A stretch of DNA of 32,000 bases from Bacillus sp. Brlt_9 (GCF_051948935.1 NZ_JAYJLO010000003.1:455388-487387), one strand, 5' to 3'. Counted from the stretch's first letter, positions 3,378 through 30,396 are shown. The notes: a model not told the origin generated them from the letters alone. Made by a program: numbers and translations.

Positions 3378-4088
3378 ATGAGATATAACCAATTAAGTGA
3401 AGGGGCAAAGAATAGGGCAGTCGTAACAGCTTTCGAAGAAGTTCAAGAAAAAAAGATTGATTATTCATATGAGAAACAGATAATGAGAGAGCTTGCACAA
3501 AATTCATTATTTGAATTCCACTGCAAGAGCAAAAATGTAGATTGGGAATATGAATATGGATTAGTGGATTTCACTATAACTGACATAACAATTAATCTTG
3601 AGAGTCTTCTATCTGATAATGTAAAATTATTAGATGTTTGGAAAGAAATTATGAATGTTAGTACAGAAAAATGTGAGATAGAAGTTGAAGTTTTAGGAAG
3701 GTACCCAATTGCGAATTTTAAAGAAGATTATGAATGGGAAAATATAGAGAAAAAGTTGGAGTATATGAAGCTATATGCAGCTGAGTATGATATTAATGTG
3801 GATAAATATGAAATCCAATTGATATTTGGTGCAAACATTGAACAGTTTGTAGGACTCAGGGATGAATTTGAAATAATTTTAAGGAAAAACGGATTAAAGA
3901 TTGCTAATTATGTTTTAAAAAAGGCTATTGAAATGGTTGGAAAGATGACAGCTAGTATAGACGGACATATAAAATACATTAAATCTGAGGAATATGTAAA
4001 GGAATATTTAGAAAACAATAATGATGTTTTTGATTTCGATATAAGTGGTGAAAGATTGATAGCAGAAAATAGTACTGAAAATAACTAA
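3378..4088 (+). CDS. Hypothetical protein, paralog B of the tandem family
   Basis: AAGGA RBS. Colinear similarity to 2501-3193 (QLSEGAKNRAV, FKEDYEWENIEKKLEYM, FDFDISGERL). Confidence 0.85.
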   Translation: MRYNQLSEGAKNRAVVTAFEEVQEKKIDYSYEKQIMRELAQNSLFEFHCKSKNVDWEYEYGLVDFTITDITINLESLLSDNVKLLDVWKEIMNVSTEKCEIEVEVLGRYPIANFKEDYEWENIEKKLEYMKLYAAEYDINVDKYEIQLIFGANIEQFVGLRDEFEIILRKNGLKIANYVLKKAIEMVGKMTASIDGHIKYIKSEEYVKEYLENNNDVFDFDISGERLIAENSTENN

Positions 4089-4135
4089 TATGAACATTTA
4101 AATACATAAAAAAACAACGAAAAGGATGATTATAA

Positions 4136-4798
4136 ATGAAATTTGTAGACTTAAATAATGGAGCAAAAGAAGTGGCGATTAATGAGGTATACAGTAATTT
4201 AAATAACTGTTTAAACCGTAAAAACGAAATAATCAGAATCAATAAGAATGTTAAAGATGTTTTTAAGAGTTATCAAAGTAACTCTATCAATCTAGCCTGG
4301 AATTTCAAAAATGGCAAAGTGAGTTATAAAGAATTCTCTCCTCAATTAAATATTAGTGATCTGTTAGTAAATAATGATGAAATTAATGGACTATGGAATG
4401 AGTTATATGAAATTACTGATGGATATAGTGAACTAGAAATGAAACTTTCATCAGAAAGTGCTAAGGTAGATTTTATTCTGGATTATATTCCTTTCCTAAA
4501 TACAAGCTATATGATTGGTTTTATTAATAAATATGATAATCAATTCAAAGAGTCTATTATGGCCGAAAGTGAAATAAAATCCGCATTTGAATCCGTATTG
4601 AAAGCTAAGGGTTTAAAAATAACAAGTTACCTGAATCAAAAGTTAAATCAATTGAGAATTGAGATTAATAATATGATTAAAAATGAAATGGAATTTATAA
4701 AATCAAGAAAGTATATAAAAAAACAGTTAGAAACAGGACTAAATTTAAATTTTGATTTTGATGGACATTTAATATCTCAGAATCAAAAAACAGCATAA
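4136..4798 (+). CDS. Hypothetical protein, divergent paralog C of the tandem family
   Basis: AAAAGGATGAT RBS like paralogs A and B. DLNNGAKEVAI at the N-terminus, KGLKITSYL in the middle and FDFDGHLI at the C-terminus. Confidence 0.8.
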   Translation: MKFVDLNNGAKEVAINEVYSNLNNCLNRKNEIIRINKNVKDVFKSYQSNSINLAWNFKNGKVSYKEFSPQLNISDLLVNNDEINGLWNELYEITDGYSELEMKLSSESAKVDFILDYIPFLNTSYMIGFINKYDNQFKESIMAESEIKSAFESVLKAKGLKITSYLNQKLNQLRIEINNMIKNEMEFIKSRKYIKKQLETGLNLNFDFDGHLISQNQKTA

Positions 4799-4810
4799 TT
4801 AAATCTAAAA

Positions 4811-4846
4811 AAGCGATAGATATCTTCCTATTGCTTTTTTCTTTTT
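4811..4846 (+). terminator. Rho-independent terminator
   Basis: AAGCGATAG-ATATCTTC-CTATTGCTT followed by a T-run. Confidence 0.75.
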
Positions 4847-4979
4847 TGAAAATATATATAAGCTCTATATGAGGATCAAGGAGTTCAAGAATTAAAGCGC
4901 AACTTAAGGGAACTAGATATAATAAAAATATTAAGAGTTTTATTTAAACAAGTAATAATTATTTTATTTATAAAAAAGG

Positions 4980-5009
4980 GTTGATTTTATTTTATTATAA
5001 ATAATATAA
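4980..5009 (+). promoter_or_regulatory. SigmaA-like promoter candidate for the RNA array
   Basis: TTGATT (4980-4985), an 18-nt spacer, then TATAAT (5004-5009). Confidence 0.5.
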
Positions 5010-5082
5010 TACAAGAACAGAAACGACCTTGAAGTTGATAAAACTTTAAAGGGAAATTTCTTCTTTTATGAAAGTTAAATAG

Positions 5083-5286
5083 TATTCCTGATGCGGGAGA
5101 ACAGTTACTTCGAGAAAATTCAAACATAAGATTATATTTTTGATTAAAATATAGGTTTCGTGACGTAATAGATATGTTTAGCTTTGAACAACTGTTCGGT
5201 TAGATAAAACTAAGTACGGCGATAACAACTATTTTTGTTTTGATTAGATTCAAAACATTTTACTGTTCTCATTATTCTCAGGAATA
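5083..5286 (+). ncRNA. Y-RNA-like structured RNA, unit 1 (about 204 nt)
   Basis: The 5' arm TATTCCTGA-TGCGG-GAGAACAGT-TACTTCG pairs with the 3' arm ACTGTTCTC-ATTATTC-TCAGGAATA. No ORF. Same strand as the TROVE gene and upstream of it. Confidence 0.6.
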
Positions 5287-5319
5287 TTGATTTTATAAAT
5301 AACTATGATTTTATATATT

Positions 5320-5405
5320 CTATCCTGATGCGGAAGCACAGTTACTTCGTACAATACTTTGGGTGTAATGTAAACACAAAACTGTTCTTATTATTCTCAG
5401 GATAG
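5320..5405 (+). ncRNA. Y-RNA-like structured RNA, unit 2 (about 86 nt, minimal version)
   Basis: CTATCCTGA-TGCGG-AAGCACAGT-TACTTCG ... ACTGTTCTT-ATTATTC-TCAGGATAG. Confidence 0.6.
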
Positions 5406-5429
5406 ATTTAAATTTTATAATTTATAAAT

Positions 5430-5566
5430 CATATACGATGCGGTTAAACAGATACTTCGACAAGACTGTAAATCTTATTAAAACATAAAAGATTCTACAG
5501 CTACCTATTTCGTAGATATAGAGCTAGCTGTCTTTTTATCCTCTGTTTAAAATATTCTCGTATATG
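5430..5566 (+). ncRNA. Y-RNA-like structured RNA, unit 3 (about 137 nt)
   Basis: ATATACGA-TGCGG-TTAAACAGA-TACTTCG ... TCTGTTTAA-AATATTC-TCGTATAT. The interior holds further hairpins. Confidence 0.6.
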
Positions 5567-5576
5567 TACTTATATA

Positions 5577-5619
5577 GGATAGACAAGGGGATCGGATCCT
5601 GATCGCCTTGTAACTATCC
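5577..5619 (+). other. GC-rich extended hairpin between RNA units 3 and 4
   Basis: GGATAG-ACAAGGGGATC-(GGATCCT)-GATCGCCTTGT-AA-CTATCC. No T-run follows. Confidence 0.5.
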
Positions 5620-5639
5620 CAAATTTTAAAAATAACCCA

Positions 5640-5756
5640 CAAGATGTGAAGCGGACAAACAGTTACTTCGAACAATATCAAAAGATAAAATTAAACGCTT
5701 TGTTTTTCCAAATGTCTAACAAAACTGTTTGTGATATTCTCGCATCTTGTTTTTTT
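5640..5756 (+). ncRNA. Y-RNA-like structured RNA, unit 4 (about 110 nt plus U-tail)
   Basis: CAAGATGTGA-AGCGG-ACAAACAGT-TACTTCG ... ACTGTTTGT-GATATTC-TCGCATCTTG followed by TTTTTTT. Confidence 0.6.
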
Positions 5757-5780
5757 AAGGAATAATAATTATGAATATGG

Positions 5781-5887
5781 GATGTAAATTCGAAAACAGA
5801 GCATTTAGATGGTTGAGGCAAATTGATCAATGCAATGAGTGTGAGAGTGAGTTGTAGTGCTCTGTTTTGGAAATTACATCTTTTTTG
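5781..5887 (+). ncRNA. Long-stem RNA element with U-run: a candidate attenuator or leader of rsr, or a fifth end-paired small RNA
   Basis: 5781-5803 pairs with 5858-5880 (21 of 23 positions), followed by TTTTTT. A possible TTGTTT-17-TATGAA promoter lies at 5747-5775. Confidence 0.5.
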
Positions 5888-5920
5888 TGTCTAAAAACAT
5901 CTCTTGGAGGGGTTATATAT

Positions 5921-7597
5921 ATGAAAATGACTAAAGCAGTAAAAGTGAAACGAGAACGTGAAGTAAATAAAGCTGTAACAAACTTTATGGCAGGAACTAG
6001 TTATGAAGTAGATCCTTTAACTACGTTAAAAATGGTTTCTGCTAGTTCAATTTTCGGTGAACCTCAATATTATCGCCACGGTGAATTCCAACAAAAAAAT
6101 GTTCGAGATGGTAGCTACCATTTACATAGATTGTTAAAAAACAATGATGCTTTGTTAGATGATAAATATGATGGAATGAGCACAAGTGCAGTTATGGAAA
6201 AAGTGATTGATGCTGCGTTAGAGTATGATTTTGAAGCGACATTAAAATGGGCTGTAGATTTAAGAAAATCATTCTTTATGCGTTTAAATCCACAAATCAT
6301 TATGGTTCGTGCAGCAATGCATCCAAAAAGAAAAGAATTCACAGCGAATAATCCTGGAGAATTTAATAGATTGAATAAATTGGTGATGAGTCGAGCTGAT
6401 GAACCTTCCGCTCAAGCAACATATTGGTTATATCGTAACGGTTCAAAAAATGGTCTTCCTTCTCTGTTAAAGCGTTCTTGGAGAGATCGTTTGGAAAATG
6501 CATCTGCCTACGAAATTGCTAAGTACCGCAATACGAATATCGGGATGATAGATACAGTTCGTATATCACACGCAAATAGTGAACTCATTAATGAGTTAAT
6601 GACGGAAAATAGTGTAGAGGTGAATGAAGAGGATATGACGTGGAATCGTCTTCGTTCTGAAGGTAAGTCTTGGAAAGAGATTTTTGAAGTTATTAAGCTA
6701 CCTCATATGGCGCTGCTTAGAAACTTAAGAGGGATCTTTAAAGAAATTAATGATGTGGACTTCTGTAAAAAAACAATGGCAGAACTAAAAAATGGTGTTG
6801 CTAAAGGAAGACAATTCCCATTCCGATATTTTAGTGCGTATAAAATGATTCAGGATGAATTGGACACGAATAAAAATCGCTATTTAAAAAATATGGAGAA
6901 TACGCCAATTAATCACGGCCGAATTATTCTAGATGCTCTGGAAGAGTGTATTGATCTATCTAGGGGGATTCTGCCTCAGTTAACCGGAAAGACAATGGCC
7001 TTATCGGATAACTCGGGAAGTGCTTGGGGTACATTTAACAGTGAATTTGGCAAAATGACTGTTGCTGAAATTAATAATCTATCTTCGGTATTAACTGCTC
7101 AAAATTCTGATGAGGGTTATGTTGGTATTTTTGGAGATGAGCTTGACGATAATCCAGTCTCAATGAGAGAAGGCGCTTTATCTCAAGTAAAAGCCTTGGG
7201 GAAAAAGGCTCAATACATTGGTTCGGGTACGGAAAATGGTGTATGGCTATTCCTTCAACGAGCAATAGAGAATAAAGAACACTGGGACAATATTTTCATT
7301 TATTCTGATCAGCAAGCCGGACACGGTGGATTATATGGAGAAGATGCCCGTGAATATGCCCAATACGTGTGTAATGGTCATTACATTGATGTGTTTAAAC
7401 TTGTGAAAGAATATCGAAATAAAGTTAATCCAAAAGTAAATGTATTTACGGTTCAGACAGCTGGATATTCAAATGTACTTGTACCAGAAAACTTTTATCG
7501 AAGTGCTGTATTATATGGCTGGACGGGGAAAGAATCGTTGTACGCGAACGAATACATCAAGCTTTGGGATGAGTTTGAAAATAAAAAACAGGCATAA
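5921..7597 (+). CDS. rsr: TROVE-domain Ro60 ortholog (Rsr) with a C-terminal vWA/MIDAS domain
   Basis: GGAGG RBS at 5906-5910. LPHMALLRNLRGI, RQFPFRYF and VRISHA resemble Ro60 TROVE motifs. ALSDNSGSAWG is a DxSxS MIDAS motif. Start moved from 5867 because that extension lies inside the upstream stem and has no RBS. Confidence 0.85.
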   Translation: MKMTKAVKVKREREVNKAVTNFMAGTSYEVDPLTTLKMVSASSIFGEPQYYRHGEFQQKNVRDGSYHLHRLLKNNDALLDDKYDGMSTSAVMEKVIDAALEYDFEATLKWAVDLRKSFFMRLNPQIIMVRAAMHPKRKEFTANNPGEFNRLNKLVMSRADEPSAQATYWLYRNGSKNGLPSLLKRSWRDRLENASAYEIAKYRNTNIGMIDTVRISHANSELINELMTENSVEVNEEDMTWNRLRSEGKSWKEIFEVIKLPHMALLRNLRGIFKEINDVDFCKKTMAELKNGVAKGRQFPFRYFSAYKMIQDELDTNKNRYLKNMENTPINHGRIILDALEECIDLSRGILPQLTGKTMALSDNSGSAWGTFNSEFGKMTVAEINNLSSVLTAQNSDEGYVGIFGDELDDNPVSMREGALSQVKALGKKAQYIGSGTENGVWLFLQRAIENKEHWDNIFIYSDQQAGHGGLYGEDAREYAQYVCNGHYIDVFKLVKEYRNKVNPKVNVFTVQTAGYSNVLVPENFYRSAVLYGWTGKESLYANEYIKLWDEFENKKQA

Positions 7598-25303: not shown

Positions 25304-25506
25304 TGAACTCCCTCCTTAATTAATTATATTTATCAAGAGTAGAGTAATGCCTTTTTCTAAATAAAAAAGATAGTCATTCCGAGTGATACTTAACTTCATT
25401 AAGTATTTTGTGTTTTTACTATACATATGAAAAAATATGATTATATTTAGTATCATAATAAGGCTAATGAGTGCTTTATTCCTTTTTAAAAATAGAGGGT
25501 GATCCA

Positions 25507-26271
25507 ATGTTGGTTAAAGATAAAGTTGCTGTTATTACTGGTGGTGCATCAGGTATAGGGAGAGAAACTTCGTTAAAATATGCTCGTGAAGGAGCTAAAG
25601 TAGTAGTTGCTGACTTTAACGAAGCTGGTGGTACAGAAACTGTGAAACTAATCAAAAAAGAGGGCGGCGAAGCAGTCTTCTATAAAGTGGATGTTACGAA
25701 GTATGATGAAGTTGAGAAGTTAGTTGAATTTACTGTAGATACATATAAAACAATTGATGTAATGTTCAATAATGCTGGTATTGGTGGTGCAGGTGTAGTT
25801 AATAATCAAGACTTAGAATTATACCATAAAGTTATAAATGTAAATCAGCACGGTGTAACTTATGGAATTATGGCAGCAAGTAAAAAAATGATTGAACTTG
25901 GTGTAAAAGGTGTAATAATTAATACTGCTTCAGTATTTGGATATATGGCCTCTGTTGGTACTTTTGCTTATCACGCTACAAAAGGTGCAGTGGTAATGAT
26001 GACGAAATCAGCTGCATTAGACTTAGCACCATATGGAATAAGAGTTGTAGCAATTGCTCCAGGTTTTGTTGAAACACCGATTGTAGAAACATATAAGAAA
26101 ATGGGAATAGAAGATAAACTTAAAGCTCTTCAAATGGGTAAAGAATATATCCAGCCAGAACAGATTGCCGATGTAGTGTGCTTATTAGCAACTAAAGAAG
26201 CGAGAATGGTAAACGGTAGTGTTGTAATGGTAGATGATGGTTTTGCATCCTTTAAGTCATACTTAGGTTAA
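25507..26271 (+). CDS. Short-chain dehydrogenase/reductase (SDR) family oxidoreductase
   Basis: AGAGGGTGA RBS. TGGASGIGR cofactor motif, NNAG, and the catalytic YHATK (YxxxK). Confidence 0.9.
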   Translation: MLVKDKVAVITGGASGIGRETSLKYAREGAKVVVADFNEAGGTETVKLIKKEGGEAVFYKVDVTKYDEVEKLVEFTVDTYKTIDVMFNNAGIGGAGVVNNQDLELYHKVINVNQHGVTYGIMAASKKMIELGVKGVIINTASVFGYMASVGTFAYHATKGAVVMMTKSAALDLAPYGIRVVAIAPGFVETPIVETYKKMGIEDKLKALQMGKEYIQPEQIADVVCLLATKEARMVNGSVVMVDDGFASFKSYLG

Positions 26272-28550: not shown

Positions 28551-28698
28551 AGAGAAAGGGGCTACGATAGTACGTCCTTTTTAATTTGTGTAGGATTTAA
28601 ACGATGTGAAATAATTCCCATATATTATTGATATTTTATATGAAATGCATAGATTGTTACTGGAAATGTCTTTTGCTGTGGTAGAAGAAGGTGATGAG

Positions 28699-30396
28699 TT
28701 GCGAACGATTTCCAAAAAAATAGTAGGCGTACTTACTATTTCGCTTACAGCAAGTTTTTTAATGACAAACGCTCTAATGTATTACAGTGTATACGATAAA
28801 ACGCTTGAAGCAGCAGGTATTGAAGCATATGGTTGTGCAAATATTACGACTGGTCTATTAAATCCAGAAGATGTACAAAAAGTTTTAAAAGGGGATAAAG
28901 AAACTGTTGAAAAAGTGGGAGATCAAATTGAGTGGACAGTAAAACATAAAGATATATTTGATGCTCAATACATATTAGATTTAAAAGGAAACATCGTTGC
29001 TTCAGATAGTAACTTATTAAAGAGTGGCTCTAAAATTGGTGATAAGCATCCGATTGACCCTGAATTAATTCATCATTTAAAAGATATGAAGCATCCTGTT
29101 TTTTCTGAAGTCTATGAATTTAATGGAAAAGAAAAGGTGACAGGATTTGCACCTATATTTAAAGATCAGGATCCAAATAAAGAAGTGATAGCAATAAGTG
29201 CTATTGATTTTGACGCTTCTATTGTAACTCAAAGAACATTAGAAACGATTGGTTCATCTGTTTTACTTAGTGCGATTCCATTGTTATTAGTATTAGTTGT
29301 TACGGCACTATTTGTAAATAGAATCATAAGACCGATTAGAATTGTTTCTGATAAAGTAAATGAGGTAAGTAAAGGGGATTTATCTAAAGAAAAGCTTTTA
29401 TTTAAAAACAAAGATGAAATAGGGATGTTAGCTGAAGACTTCAACTCATTGACTGGTAGATTTAAAGATATAATAGGTGATGTTTCATTGAATACCGCTC
29501 ATTTAGCTGCTACTTCTGAAGAGTTGTATGCTAGTGCTCAGAATATATCTAGTATTTCAGATAAAAATACAAACAGACTAGTCGAAGTTAACGATATGTC
29601 TGAAACACAATCGAATCATATGACCGAAATAGCTACAATTATTCATAACCTATCAAATCATATACAAATTATTTCAGAGCAATTGAACACATTTAGTTCA
29701 ATTTCTAAAAATACTGTAGAAGAGGCGATTGCAGGAGAAGGAGTAATTGAAGAAACAAACTATCAAATGCAAAACATTGTAACGAAAATAGAAACTTTAA
29801 CACAGACTATGATGTCATTACAGCTAAAGTCTAAGAAGATTGATAAAATAATAGAAGTCATTAGTGCAGGTTCGGAACAAACGAACATTATTTCTATGAA
29901 TGCTGCGATAGAAGCAAATAAGGCAGGAGAGAGTGGTAAGGGCTTCGCGGTAGTAGCTGGTGAGGTTCGTCGATTAGCAGAAGAATCGTCAAGCTCTACA
30001 GGAATGATAAGGGAATTGCTAAATGAAATTCAAAAAGAAATAAATGAAGCGTTAAATGAAAGTAAAGAGGGGAATAAGGAAGCTAATGAGGGGATGTCTA
30101 AAGTAAAAGAAGCTGGGGAATCGTTTAATCAAATCTCCACTCGTATTAAAATGGTAAGCCAAGAAATTACTACTGCTTCTGAATCGGTAGAATCTGTATC
30201 GAGTGAAATAGAAGAGATTATAGAGAAAATGGATCATATAGTGAAGCTTCTTGATGATACAACTAAAAATATTTATGAAACATCTACAGCTATAAATGAT
30301 CAAAATAGTTCATTTAAAGAAATAGTTGATGTAACGAATAGTATTTCAAAAACATCAGAACAATTAAAAGAGATAATAGGGTATTTCAAAATATAA
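28699..30396 (+). CDS. Methyl-accepting chemotaxis protein (extracellular sensor domain, HAMP, MA signalling domain)
   Basis: Two TM helices flank a ~180-aa sensor region. HAMP region ([12 protein letters not shown]). Signalling hairpin [41 protein letters not shown] at 28699 after AAGGTGA is preferred, since the track's ATG at 28645 has no RBS. Confidence 0.9.

What the first reader, a model, noticed from the sequence alone, without database searches (positions are those of the whole stretch)
5083..5756. Four tandem covarying structured RNAs (a Y-RNA-like array) directly upstream of the Ro60/TROVE gene
This stretch has no ORFs. It contains four units of different length (about 204, 86, 137 and 117 nt) that share one architecture. 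The 5' arm is an outer helix, then (T/A)GCGG, then a 9-nt inner helix ending ACAG(T/A), then an invariant TACTTCG. The 3' arm is the complementary inner helix, then RWTATTC, then the complementary outer helix. Unit 1: TATTCCTGA-TGCGG-GAGAACAGT-TACTTCG ... ACTGTTCTC-ATTATTC-TCAGGAATA. Unit 2: CTATCCTGA-TGCGG-AAGCACAGT-TACTTCG ... ACTGTTCTT-ATTATTC-TCAGGATAG. Unit 3: ATATACGA-TGCGG-TTAAACAGA-TACTTCG ... TCTGTTTAA-AATATTC-TCGTATAT. Unit 4: CAAGATGTGA-AGCGG-ACAAACAGT-TACTTCG ... ACTGTTTGT-GATATTC-TCGCATCTTG. Both helices change sequence between units yet stay complementary, which is compensatory change. The asymmetric internal loop (5 nt opposite 7 nt) and TACTTCG are conserved, while the interiors are unrelated. 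That pattern indicates a selected RNA fold with a shared protein-docking module, not a DNA repeat. A sigmaA-like promoter (4980-5009) precedes unit 1 and only unit 4 ends in a U-run, which suggests one precursor processed into several RNAs. An RNA whose 5' and 3' ends pair into a stem carrying a conserved loop or bulge, encoded next to rsr, fits the definition of a Y RNA. More than one Y RNA beside rsr is known in other bacteria (for example Salmonella YrlA/YrlB). I do not recognise this consensus. I also could not find the tRNA-like module reported for YrlA-class RNAs, so this may be a distinct Firmicute Y-RNA class.
Basis: partly seen in the sequence, partly recalled or inferred. Interest (0 to 1): 0.85.

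Follow-up and report, generated by a model that had tools for sequence, protein, structure and literature searches.

The report
Four Y-like RNAs beside phage Ro60
Four small structured RNAs lie in a row in front of a virus-type Ro60 (TROVE) gene; they share a diverged version of the protein-docking stem of bacterial Y RNAs but carry unrelated inserts, so they are new, divergent members of a known RNA-protein partnership.

Summary
Window 5083-5749 holds four units on the + strand. Each has an outer helix, WGCGG, a 9-bp inner helix, UACUUCG, a variable interior, the inner helix return, RWUAUUC, and the outer helix return.

The same module occurs next to homologues of the downstream TROVE gene in Bacillus phage G, B. 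toyonensis, B. mexicanus and many large phage and gut or rumen contigs. It is always on the TROVE strand. Loci carry one to about six or seven copies. Both helices covary strongly, and the non-Watson-Crick positions are mostly G:U.

In relatives the same stem encloses the tRNA-like domain of YrlA. Rfam YrlA aligns end to end with such modules, below its gathering score. The stem is therefore a diverged YrlA Ro-binding stem. The window's four units have no tRNA-like domain and no Rfam hit, so they resemble YrlB or Yrl RNAs.

The protein folds as a Ro60 ring plus vWA domain. Its closest solved structure is Thermus phage phiLo Ro60, which binds two upstream Y-like RNAs and host PNPase.

Verdict: real Y-RNA-type partners of a phage Ro60. 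The kind is known. The clade-specific consensus, the arrays and the varied cargo appear undescribed. Transcription, processing and binding are inferred, not shown.

The parts
4981..5010 (+). Sigma-70/SigA-like promoter candidate (TTGATT, 18 nt, TATAAT) about 73 nt upstream of unit 1
   Evidence: Consensus scan, 10 of 12 matches. Identical in B. toyonensis L001. Not statistically enriched, so function is inferred.
5083..5286 (+). Unit 1: Y-RNA-like. Outer helix 5083-5091/5278-5286, loop TGCGG 5092-5096, inner helix 5097-5105/5262-5270, UACUUCG box 5106-5112, 149-nt interior, 3' loop ATTATTC 5271-5277
   Evidence: Sequence; fold z -4.4; PWM 33.5 bits; module scan
5320..5405 (+). Unit 2: Y-RNA-like with a short (31-nt) interior hairpin. 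Box 5343-5349
   Evidence: z -3.4; CM R1 37.4 bits, E 2.6e-7; PWM 33.5 bits. In B. toyonensis the interior carries a 7-nt indel while the stems are unchanged.
5430..5566 (+). Unit 3: Y-RNA-like with an 82-nt interior. Box 5453-5459
   Evidence: z -2.3; PWM 27.8 bits
5577..5619 (+). G+C-rich hairpin between units 3 and 4. It is not a module and its role is unknown.
   Evidence: Fold -24.7 kcal/mol, z -5.3. Conserved in B. toyonensis; changes fall in the loop, plus one C-to-U in the stem that keeps a G:U pair.
5640..5756 (+). Unit 4: Y-RNA-like (5640-5749, box 5664-5670, 53-nt interior) followed by a U-run at 5750-5756
   Evidence: z -3.5; PWM 32.5 bits. The inner helix shows a compensatory C>T / G>A change against B. 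toyonensis.
5779..5888 (+). Long interrupted hairpin (about 23-bp stem, variable apex) plus a U-run, directly upstream of the TROVE ribosome-binding site. It is terminator-like or possibly a further RNA.
   Evidence: Fold z -5.3. The stem is conserved in B. toyonensis and B. mexicanus with G:U-compatible changes and one compensatory pair.
5921..7597 (+). Ro60-like protein gene (TROVE HEAT-repeat ring plus vWA domain with a DxSxS MIDAS motif), 558 aa
   Evidence: Pfam TROVE; PHROG 850 'RNA-binding protein', E 3.8e-42; AF2 pLDDT 82. The best PDB fold matches are phiLo phage Ro60 9KOP/9L5Y, then Xenopus and human Ro60 and D. radiodurans Rsr. DNSGS is invariant.

Best explanation
The four units are non-coding Y-RNA-type RNAs made from the + strand. 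Each uses its paired 5' and 3' ends as a docking module for the Ro60-like protein encoded immediately downstream. The docking module is the outer helix, the asymmetric WGCGG / RWUAUUC internal loop, the inner helix and the adjoining single-stranded UACUUC. The variable interior of each RNA is the cargo or effector end. By analogy with characterised Ro60-Y RNA particles, the RNAs would gate the protein's RNA-binding surfaces, tether it to other factors such as host PNPase, or both.

Shown here:
- The fold is real and under selection.
- It is made from the + strand.
- It is specifically linked to this TROVE clade.
- It corresponds to the YrlA Rsr-binding stem.
- The protein has a Ro60 fold.

Inferred:
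- Transcription and processing into discrete RNAs.
- Direct binding to the protein.
- The roles of the UACUUC box and of the four different interiors.
For: 1. Linkage and strand. In 166 loci fetched through the TROVE protein, the 5' motif WGCRG-N8-11-TACTTY occurs 315 times on the TROVE strand and 16 times on the other. There are 156 complete two-helix modules on the TROVE strand and none on the other. They cluster within 500 nt upstream or just downstream of the gene.

2. Structure.
- Of 311 motif anchors, 156 have a matching 3' arm downstream, against 11-20 in shuffled, reversed or upstream controls.
- On 90 distinct modules all 17 tested pairs show changes on both sides. 95% of cells are paired, against 37-48% when partners are slid. 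The covariation score is 0.90 against 0.12-0.14.
- When partners were chosen by Watson-Crick pairs only, the remaining positions were G:U-type 138 times and A:C-type 25 times. This indicates an RNA read from the + strand.

3. Identity of the stem.
- Rfam YrlA (RF02553) hits lie inside modules of L009, L108, L064, L155, L095, L105, L099 and phage G at 33-42 bits, E 4e-8 to 3e-3.
- In L108 the whole 114-position model aligns to the whole module. The YrlA outer helix, AUGC loop, inner helix and CUAc match the module's YGA, WGCRG, inner helix and UUAC.

4. Protein. It has a TROVE domain and a Ro60 ring plus vWA fold, and its nearest solved structure is phage phiLo Ro60.

5. Precedent.
- phiLo Ro60 binds two Y-like RNAs encoded upstream of its gene and forms complexes with host PNPase (PMC12135203).
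- Bacterial Y RNAs lie within 4 kb of rsr on the same strand (PMC4201824).

6. Orthologue comparison. Against B. toyonensis (94% identity) the changes fall in interiors and spacers, and one compensatory pair occurs in unit 4.
Against: - There are no expression, processing or binding data.
- No Rfam family, including Y_RNA and YrlA, matches the window's units even at E <= 10.
- The canonical 5'-strand motif is absent. The four units read UGAU, UGAU, CGAU and UGAA. CGAA occurs in only 19 of 120 modules and GNCGAAG in only 1.
- The protein shares only 12-18% identity with structurally characterised Ro60 proteins.
- In a reverse scan of IMG/VR, 12 of 27 complete modules had no TROVE gene inside the fetched stretch. 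Flanks were often short, and at least two of the scan's stretches (L178, L192) come from contigs already known to carry a TROVE gene.
- The UACUUC box has no described counterpart beyond the YUAY of YrlA.
Confidence: 0.8

Rival explanations
1. The conserved stem is a maturation or stability cassette. It would be a leader-trailer duplex recognised by a host or phage RNase (for example RNase III) to release or protect the small RNAs and tRNA-like RNAs inside. It would be independent of the TROVE protein, which sits in the same RNA-gene cluster only by position.
For: - TROVE loci are rich in tRNA arrays, tmRNA and even ROOL RNA.
- Some modules enclose a complete tRNA in normal order, directly after UACUUC, for example L086 4695-4767.
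- 12 of 27 complete modules found by pattern had no TROVE gene in the fetched flank.
Against: - The module was found by following the TROVE gene and sits directly next to it in loci that have no tRNA at all (window, L001, L003).
- Its architecture aligns with the Rsr-binding stem of YrlA.
- Ordinary tRNAs in the same loci lack the stem.
- A processing site would not need a conserved asymmetric loop and a single-stranded box kept across this many loci.
Confidence: 0.1
2. The region is a cis-acting 5' leader of the TROVE mRNA, with repeated protein-binding or attenuator elements that autoregulate expression, and does not encode separate RNAs.
For: - It lies between a promoter-like site and the TROVE gene.
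- U-runs follow unit 4 and the long hairpin at 5779-5888.
Against: - In many relatives the modules lie downstream of the TROVE gene or kilobases away, for example L095 4668-5400, L108 4675-4932 and phage G L005 3787.
- The number of copies and their interiors vary freely.
- Relatives' modules carry a YrlA tRNA-like domain.
Confidence: 0.04
3. They are DNA-level elements, such as miniature inverted-repeat elements, recombination sites of the attC type, or replication or packaging signals.
For: Imperfect inverted repeats of variable length, in tandem, in a mobile genome.
Against: - The arms covary without sequence conservation.
- The strand bias is absolute, 156 to 0.
- G:U-type mismatches outnumber A:C-type 138 to 25, which is meaningless for duplex or cruciform DNA.
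- There are no target duplications and no recombinase nearby.
Confidence: 0.02
4. The array is a set of decoys or antitoxin-like RNAs (as in type III toxin-antitoxin repeats or anti-defence sponges). These would act on a host nuclease or defence system, with the TROVE protein as a stabilising chaperone only.
For: - Tandem RNA units in a phage.
- Several relatives' modules display tRNA-Lys(UUU)-like cargo (L086, L087, L029).
- A PARG gene lies next door in this window.
Against: - The units are not identical repeats.
- No toxin-type endoribonuclease was recognised among the adjacent genes scanned; most gave no family hit at all.
- This idea is compatible with the main explanation, not exclusive of it, because it concerns what the cargo ends do.
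Confidence: 0.04

Closest known systems
YrlA (Rfam RF02553), the tRNA-mimicking bacterial and phage Y RNA (Chen et al. 2014, PMC4201824; Wang et al. 2018, bioRxiv 10.1101/312249)
   Same: - Encoded next to a Ro60 homologue on the same strand.
- The 5' and 3' ends pair into an outer helix, an asymmetric internal loop and an inner helix.
- The Rfam consensus aligns position by position with relatives' modules: cggCga/AUGC/helix/CUAc against YGA/WGCRG/helix/UUAC.
- Some relatives, including phage G, carry the T-arm, acceptor-like hairpin and D-arm domain inside the same stem.
   Different: - The four window units have no tRNA-like domain and no YrlA hit at any threshold tried.
- Even tRNA-like relatives score 33-42 bits, below the gathering score of 69.
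- The GNCGAAN0-1G motif is replaced by YGA-WGCRG.
- There is an extra invariant UACUUC box and a conserved 3' loop (R)WUAUUC, whereas the published description says only the 5' strand is conserved.
YrlB of Salmonella and additional Y RNAs of D. radiodurans and M. smegmatis (PMC4201824)
   Same: They are second, shorter Y RNAs encoded beside rsr. They share the Ro-binding stem motif. More than one Y RNA per locus is normal.
   Different: - Here there are four RNAs and none is YrlA-type.
- There is no sequence similarity.
- YrlB orthologues were found only within S. enterica serovars (PMC4201824), whereas this module is shared across many phage lineages.
Yrl1 and Yrl2 with phiRo60 of Thermus phage phiLo (PMC12135203; PDB 9KOP, 9L5Y)
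   Same: - Phage-encoded Ro60 with several Y-like RNAs in the non-coding region upstream of its gene.
- Stem, bulge, stem architecture.
- phiRo60 is the closest solved structure to the window's protein (Foldseek E 9e-14, TM 0.64/0.76).
- That system shows binding and recruitment of host PNPase, which gives a mechanistic precedent.
   Different: - 18% protein identity.
- The phiLo RNAs were picked by a CGAA motif that the window's units lack.
- The paper's text, searched for Y RNA terms only, mentions two Y-like RNAs and no larger array, UACUUC box or comparative covariation.
Vertebrate Y RNAs and nematode stem-bulge RNAs (Rfam Y_RNA RF00019)
   Same: The terminal stem carries the Ro60 site (GGUCCGA with a bulge). 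The opposite end is variable. There are several paralogues per genome.
   Different: - No detectable sequence or covariance-model similarity.
- They are Pol III transcripts.
- The loop geometry differs.

Membership tests
Bacterial/phage Y RNA (operational definition of Chen et al. 2014) | Encoded within about 4 kb of a Ro60/TROVE gene, on the same strand | tested here: met
   The units lie 165-838 nt upstream of the TROVE start, on the + strand. The same holds across relatives: 156 complete modules on the TROVE strand and none on the other.
Bacterial/phage Y RNA (operational definition of Chen et al. 2014) | 5' and 3' ends pair into a long stem interrupted by an internal loop or bulge | tested here: met
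   MFE folds; covariation of 17 of 17 pairs
Bacterial/phage Y RNA (operational definition of Chen et al. 2014) | Conserved 5'-strand motif GNCGAAN0-1G (CGAA) | tested here: not met
   The units read UGAUG, UGAUG, CGAUG and UGAAG. CGAA occurs in 19 of 120 modules and GNCGAAG in 1 of 120. The motif position is occupied by YGA-WGCRG, as the Rfam alignment shows.
Bacterial/phage Y RNA (operational definition of Chen et al. 2014) | Bound by the Ro60 protein in vivo or in vitro | not testable with these tools
   Needs RIP, EMSA or a structure.
YrlA, Rfam RF02553 | Covariance-model score at or above the gathering score (69 bits) | tested here: not met
   No hit in the window at gathering or at E <= 10 or E <= 1. 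Relatives' modules reach only 33-42 bits.
YrlA, Rfam RF02553 | tRNA-like domain (T-arm, acceptor-like hairpin, D-arm) at the distal end | tested here: not met
   There is no tRNA, T-loop or YrlA signal in the four interiors. The domain is present in 21 of 120 modules of relatives.
Ro60 / TROVE protein family (the partner gene) | TROVE domain above the Pfam cut-off | tested here: met
   PF05731, 37.3 bits against a cut-off of 23. The match is partial (residues 266-345).
Ro60 / TROVE protein family (the partner gene) | HEAT-repeat ring plus C-terminal vWA domain with a MIDAS motif | tested here: met
   AF2 model, pLDDT 82, pTM 0.81. Full-length Foldseek matches to 9KOP/9L5Y, 1YVP, 2I91, 9NEN and 2NVO, E 1e-9 to 9e-14. 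D363-N-S-G-S367 is invariant in 26 homologues.
Phage-clade Ro60 stem module (defined here) | Match to a 5'-arm weight matrix trained only on non-Bacillus modules, plus a two-helix 3' partner | tested here: met
   The four units score 27.8-33.5 bits. The next best site in the window scores 8.5 and the shuffle maximum is 19.4. 3' partners were found for all four.

The most novel reading that the evidence does not exclude
Large phages may carry a modular 'Y-RNA cassette' system. One conserved Ro60-docking stem (YGA / WGCRG / helix / UACUUC ... UAUUC) would be reused up to about six or seven times per genome to display different cargo domains. Cargo seen includes the YrlA-type permuted tRNA mimic, whole tRNA-Lys-like cloverleaves, short hairpins and long unrelated folds. 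A single phage Ro60 could then be directed to, or could sequester, several host RNA-processing or defence factors. The Bacillus cereus-group element in this window would be a variant that has lost the tRNA mimic entirely.
Probability: 0.3. Interest if true: 0.7.

Novelty: new variant of a known kind. Interest (0 to 1): 0.5.

Why it matters
Ro60-Y RNA particles are conserved from bacteria to humans, but their RNA partners are known in few lineages. The known bacterial covariance model (YrlA) misses this whole clade.

This work gives a sequence-and-structure definition of the docking module for a large family of phage Ro60 homologues; the protein search returned 3526 relatives. It also shows that the tRNA-like domain can be dispensed with or swapped. 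These points make direct experiments possible:
- which bases of the loop and the UACUUC box the protein reads;
- what the different cargo ends recruit;
- whether phages use Ro60 RNPs to manipulate host RNA decay, as the phiLo work on PNPase suggests.

The result is an extension of a known system, not a new principle.

Tried and rejected
1. Rfam at gathering and permissive thresholds on the window gave nothing relevant. ARAGORN found no tRNA or tmRNA.

2. Megablast of 4000-9000 against INPHARED phages and PLSDB plasmids gave no match. The source element is not in those collections.

3. Covariance model R1 was built from interior-trimmed modules. It finds only unit 2 in the window, because its maximum hit length cannot span interiors of 50-150 nt. 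It was not used for the census.

4. I tried to train long insertions by mixing full-length and trimmed modules. MAFFT split the 3' inner-helix strand between two places (alignment A4), so no model was built from it. A regex-plus-helix scanner with explicit controls and a weight matrix were used instead.

5. A relaxed structure-only scan was too permissive (761 hits on + and 690 on -). It served only to reveal the WGCAG and UGCGCA loop variants.

6. Considered and rejected: a kink-turn reading of the internal loop, because the terminal GA of the outer helix pairs with UC as in the YrlA model; and pairing of the UACUUC box with 16S rRNA, for which there is no evidence.

7. PARG as a conserved partner was rejected. 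It occurs only in the B. cereus-group loci, 3 of 166.

8. The supplementary tables of Chen et al. 2014 are not held. I could not check which phage G RNA they listed.

Full report
**Observation.** There are four units on the + strand: 5083-5286, 5320-5405, 5430-5566 and 5640-5749. The last is followed by a T-run at 5750-5756.

Each unit has these elements in order:
- an outer helix of 9-10 bp ending in GA/UC;
- a 5-nt 5' loop, (U/A)GCGG;
- a 9-bp inner helix ending ACAG(U/A);
- the invariant UACUUCG;
- an interior of 149, 31, 82 or 53 nt;
- the return strand of the inner helix;
- a 7-nt 3' loop, RWUAUUC;
- the return strand of the outer helix.

Minimum-free-energy folds recover both helices and the asymmetric loop in all four units, with z-scores of -2.3 to -4.4. 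There is no ORF of 60 aa or more in the stretch. The downstream gene (5921-7597) has a TROVE domain and the next gene is a microbial-type PARG. Rfam finds nothing here at gathering or permissive thresholds, and ARAGORN finds no tRNA.

**Related loci.** The TROVE protein has 3526 relatives in the protein search, most at 57-60% identity. They include B. cereus (98%), B. toyonensis (90%), B. mexicanus (70%) and gp540 of Bacillus phage G (60%).

All three Bacillus-group contexts fetched have a gene-free stretch of about 1 kb upstream of the gene. That stretch holds the same module:
- four orthologous units in B. toyonensis;
- three in B. mexicanus;
- five in phage G, plus one more about 2.2 kb upstream.

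I then fetched 80 loci from species genomes, mostly rumen and gut Clostridia MAG contigs. I also fetched 80 loci from IMG/VR, many from contigs of 100-500 kb.

Across all 166 sequences (these loci plus the window):
- The 5' motif WGCRG-N8-11-TACTTY occurs 315 times on the TROVE strand and 16 times on the other.
- Complete modules with both helices number 156 on the TROVE strand and none on the other. They occur in 83 loci.
- They cluster within 500 nt upstream of the gene or just downstream of it.
- Arrays reach six modules, for example L095 4668-5400. Up to seven motif hits occur in one locus.
- Loop variants exist: WGCAG, and UGCGCA in Acetatifactor. Variants mostly agree within a genome, 85% against 52% expected.

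**Is it a selected RNA fold?**
- *Partner test.* Anchoring only on the 5' motif, 156 of 311 anchors have a two-helix partner downstream. Shuffled, reversed or upstream controls give 11-20.
- *Covariation.* On an alignment of 90 distinct modules with interiors trimmed, all 17 tested pairs change on both sides. 95% of cells pair, against 37-48% when partners are slid by 1-3 columns. The covariation score is 0.90 against 0.12-0.14. The modules were selected for pairing, so the percentage paired is partly circular. The diversity of pair types and the slid controls are not.
- *Strand.* I re-selected partners by Watson-Crick pairs only, which is neutral between strands. The leftover positions are then G:U-type 138 times and A:C-type 25 times. 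The fold therefore belongs to an RNA read from the + strand, not to DNA or to the other strand.
- *Independent model.* A weight matrix of the 5' arm trained only on 105 non-Bacillus modules picks exactly the four units as the top hits in the window, at 27.8-33.5 bits. The next hit scores 8.5 and the shuffle maximum is 19.4.
- *Orthologue comparison.* Against B. toyonensis (94% identity) the substitutions and indels fall in interiors and spacers. Unit 4 shows a compensatory C>T / G>A pair.

**What the stem is.** In about a fifth of the modules in relatives the interior has a T-arm, then a closed acceptor-like hairpin, then a D-arm. This is the permuted tRNA mimic that defines YrlA.

Rfam YrlA (RF02553) hits these interiors in L009, L108, L064, L155, L095, L105, L099 and phage G. 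Scores are 33-42 bits with E from 4e-8 to 3e-3, below the gathering score of 69.

In L108 the full 114-position model aligns with the whole module. The correspondences are:
- YrlA outer helix cggCga to the module's ..YGA;
- the YrlA AUGC loop to WGCRG;
- inner helix to inner helix;
- CUAc (the YUAY of Chen et al.) to UUAC of the UACUUC box;
- the 8-nt 3' loop to (R)WUAUUC.

The module is therefore a diverged form of the Rsr-binding stem of YrlA. The published motif GNCGAAN0-1G (PMC4201824) is not kept. The window's units read UGAU, UGAU, CGAU and UGAA at that position, and CGAA occurs in only 19 of 120 modules.

Other interiors are short hairpins (35 of 120), carry a T-arm only (16), or are unrelated folds (48). 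A few hold a complete tRNA in normal order immediately after UACUUC, for example the tRNA-Lys(UUU)-like sequence at L086 4695-4767. The window's four interiors belong to the non-tRNA classes.

**The protein.** Pfam detects TROVE over only part of the sequence, and sequence search against PDB finds only the phiLo phage protein. An AlphaFold model built from 26 homologues has pLDDT 82 and pTM 0.81. It matches full-length Ro60 structures in this order: phiLo phage Ro60 (9KOP, 9L5Y), Xenopus and human Ro60, D. radiodurans Rsr. The vWA MIDAS motif DNSGS is invariant. PHROGs files the protein under phage 'RNA-binding protein'. The rest of the window is made of small, mostly unannotated + strand genes with scattered PHROG hits, which fits a large phage or prophage. 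It has no close match in INPHARED or PLSDB.

**Literature.**
- Chen et al. 2014 (PMC4201824) defined bacterial Y RNAs as RNAs near rsr on the same strand with a terminal stem. They found YrlA-like RNAs in 254 bacteria and 22 phages.
- According to PMC12135203 that set included Bacillus phage G.
- PMC12135203 (2025) shows that Thermus phage phiLo Ro60 binds two Y-like RNAs encoded upstream of its gene. The RNP engages host PNPase and attenuates its activity.
- A comparative survey of jumbo phages notes TROVE proteins in a subset (PMC7824862).
- I found no description of the WGCRG / UACUUC / UAUUC consensus, of arrays of four to six or seven units, or of the variety of cargo. The library is incomplete, and the 2020 review by Sim et al. 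is not held.

**Mechanism.** The best-supported reading is that the four RNAs dock through their terminal stem on the phage Ro60 homologue and present four different distal domains.

By analogy with D. radiodurans Yrn1 and phiLo Yrl1/2, they would gate the protein or tether it to host factors such as PNPase.

The conserved single-stranded UACUUC beside the inner helix may contact the protein. That is speculation.

Whether the units are cut from one precursor cannot be told. A conserved promoter-like site lies at 4981-5010, and other promoter-like sites precede units 2 and 3. Only unit 4 and the long hairpin at 5779-5888 are followed by U-runs. Promoter-like matches are not enriched in this AT-rich region.

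**Rivals.**
- *Processing or stability cassette independent of Ro60.* This is the most serious rival. The loci are rich in RNA genes, and 12 of 27 complete modules found by a pattern scan of IMG/VR had no TROVE gene in the fetched flank. Against it, 20 of the 120 pattern hits did carry a TROVE gene, always on the same strand, and the stem corresponds to the YrlA Ro-binding stem.
- *cis-acting leader.* Unlikely, because modules often lie downstream of the gene.
- *DNA repeats.* Excluded by the strand bias and the G:U excess.

**Verdict.** The kind (Y RNAs of a phage Ro60) is known. This is a divergent variant that current models do not detect. It has a clade-specific docking consensus, expansion into arrays and interchangeable cargo. 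Interest is moderate.

Noticed in passing
window 5779-5888 (+): A long interrupted hairpin (about 23-bp stem with A.A and G.G mismatches and a variable apex) plus a U-run lies directly upstream of the TROVE ribosome-binding site. The stem is conserved in B. toyonensis and B. mexicanus with G:U-compatible changes and one compensatory pair. In the window it contains a CGAA, which B. mexicanus does not keep. It could be a terminator for the RNA array, a regulatory leader or another Ro60 ligand.
   Followed up: partly
window 5577-5619 (+): A G+C-rich hairpin (-24.7 kcal/mol, z -5.3) lies between units 3 and 4. It is conserved in B. toyonensis, is not a module, and has no assigned role.
   Followed up: partly
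window 7647-8483 (+): A microbial-type poly(ADP-ribose) glycohydrolase gene (Pfam PF10021, E 4e-49) lies immediately downstream of the TROVE gene. A homologue is present only in the B. cereus-group loci (3 of 166), so it is not a general partner of this Ro60 clade.
   Followed up: yes
L086 4670-5050; L087 1809-2030; L029 2702-2790: Some modules enclose a cloverleaf in normal tRNA order (ARAGORN tRNA-Lys UUU, Rfam tRNA 46-59 bits) starting right after UACUUC, not the permuted YrlA arrangement. In others the inner helix takes the place of the acceptor stem. Whether these are functional tRNAs, decoys or Y-RNA cargo is open.
   Followed up: partly
L099 875-1518; L108 6125-6525; L005 10647-10958; many loci: The TROVE gene of these phages sits in RNA-gene-rich regions. 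These hold a full ROOL RNA (284 bits), tmRNAs and tRNA arrays (up to 15 tRNAs per locus; 76 of 166 loci have at least one). The window and its two closest relatives have none.
   Followed up: partly
L051, L065, L066, L076, L078, L083, L085 (Acetatifactor contigs), about 2670-2900: A lineage-specific variant of the 5' loop, UGCGCA, is paired with a 3' loop G(A/C/U)CYUUUC. All of these carry YrlA-type cargo.
   Followed up: no
window 9779-9830 (+): A weak partial match to the tmRNA model (15.7 bits, E 0.015, model positions 82-140). It is probably chance.
   Followed up: no
L095 6599-6712 and 2162-2444: Sub-threshold matches to RAGATH-33 (45.5 bits against a gathering score of 120) and to the group I intron model (27 bits against 50) occur near the TROVE gene of an IMG/VR phage.
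   Followed up: no
window 1-32000: The whole window consists of small and medium, mostly + strand genes with few family hits: PHROG unknowns, a FabG-like reductase at 25471-26271 and phrog_8572 at 28645-30396. It has no near match in INPHARED or PLSDB. This fits an undescribed large phage or prophage of the B. cereus group.
   Followed up: partly
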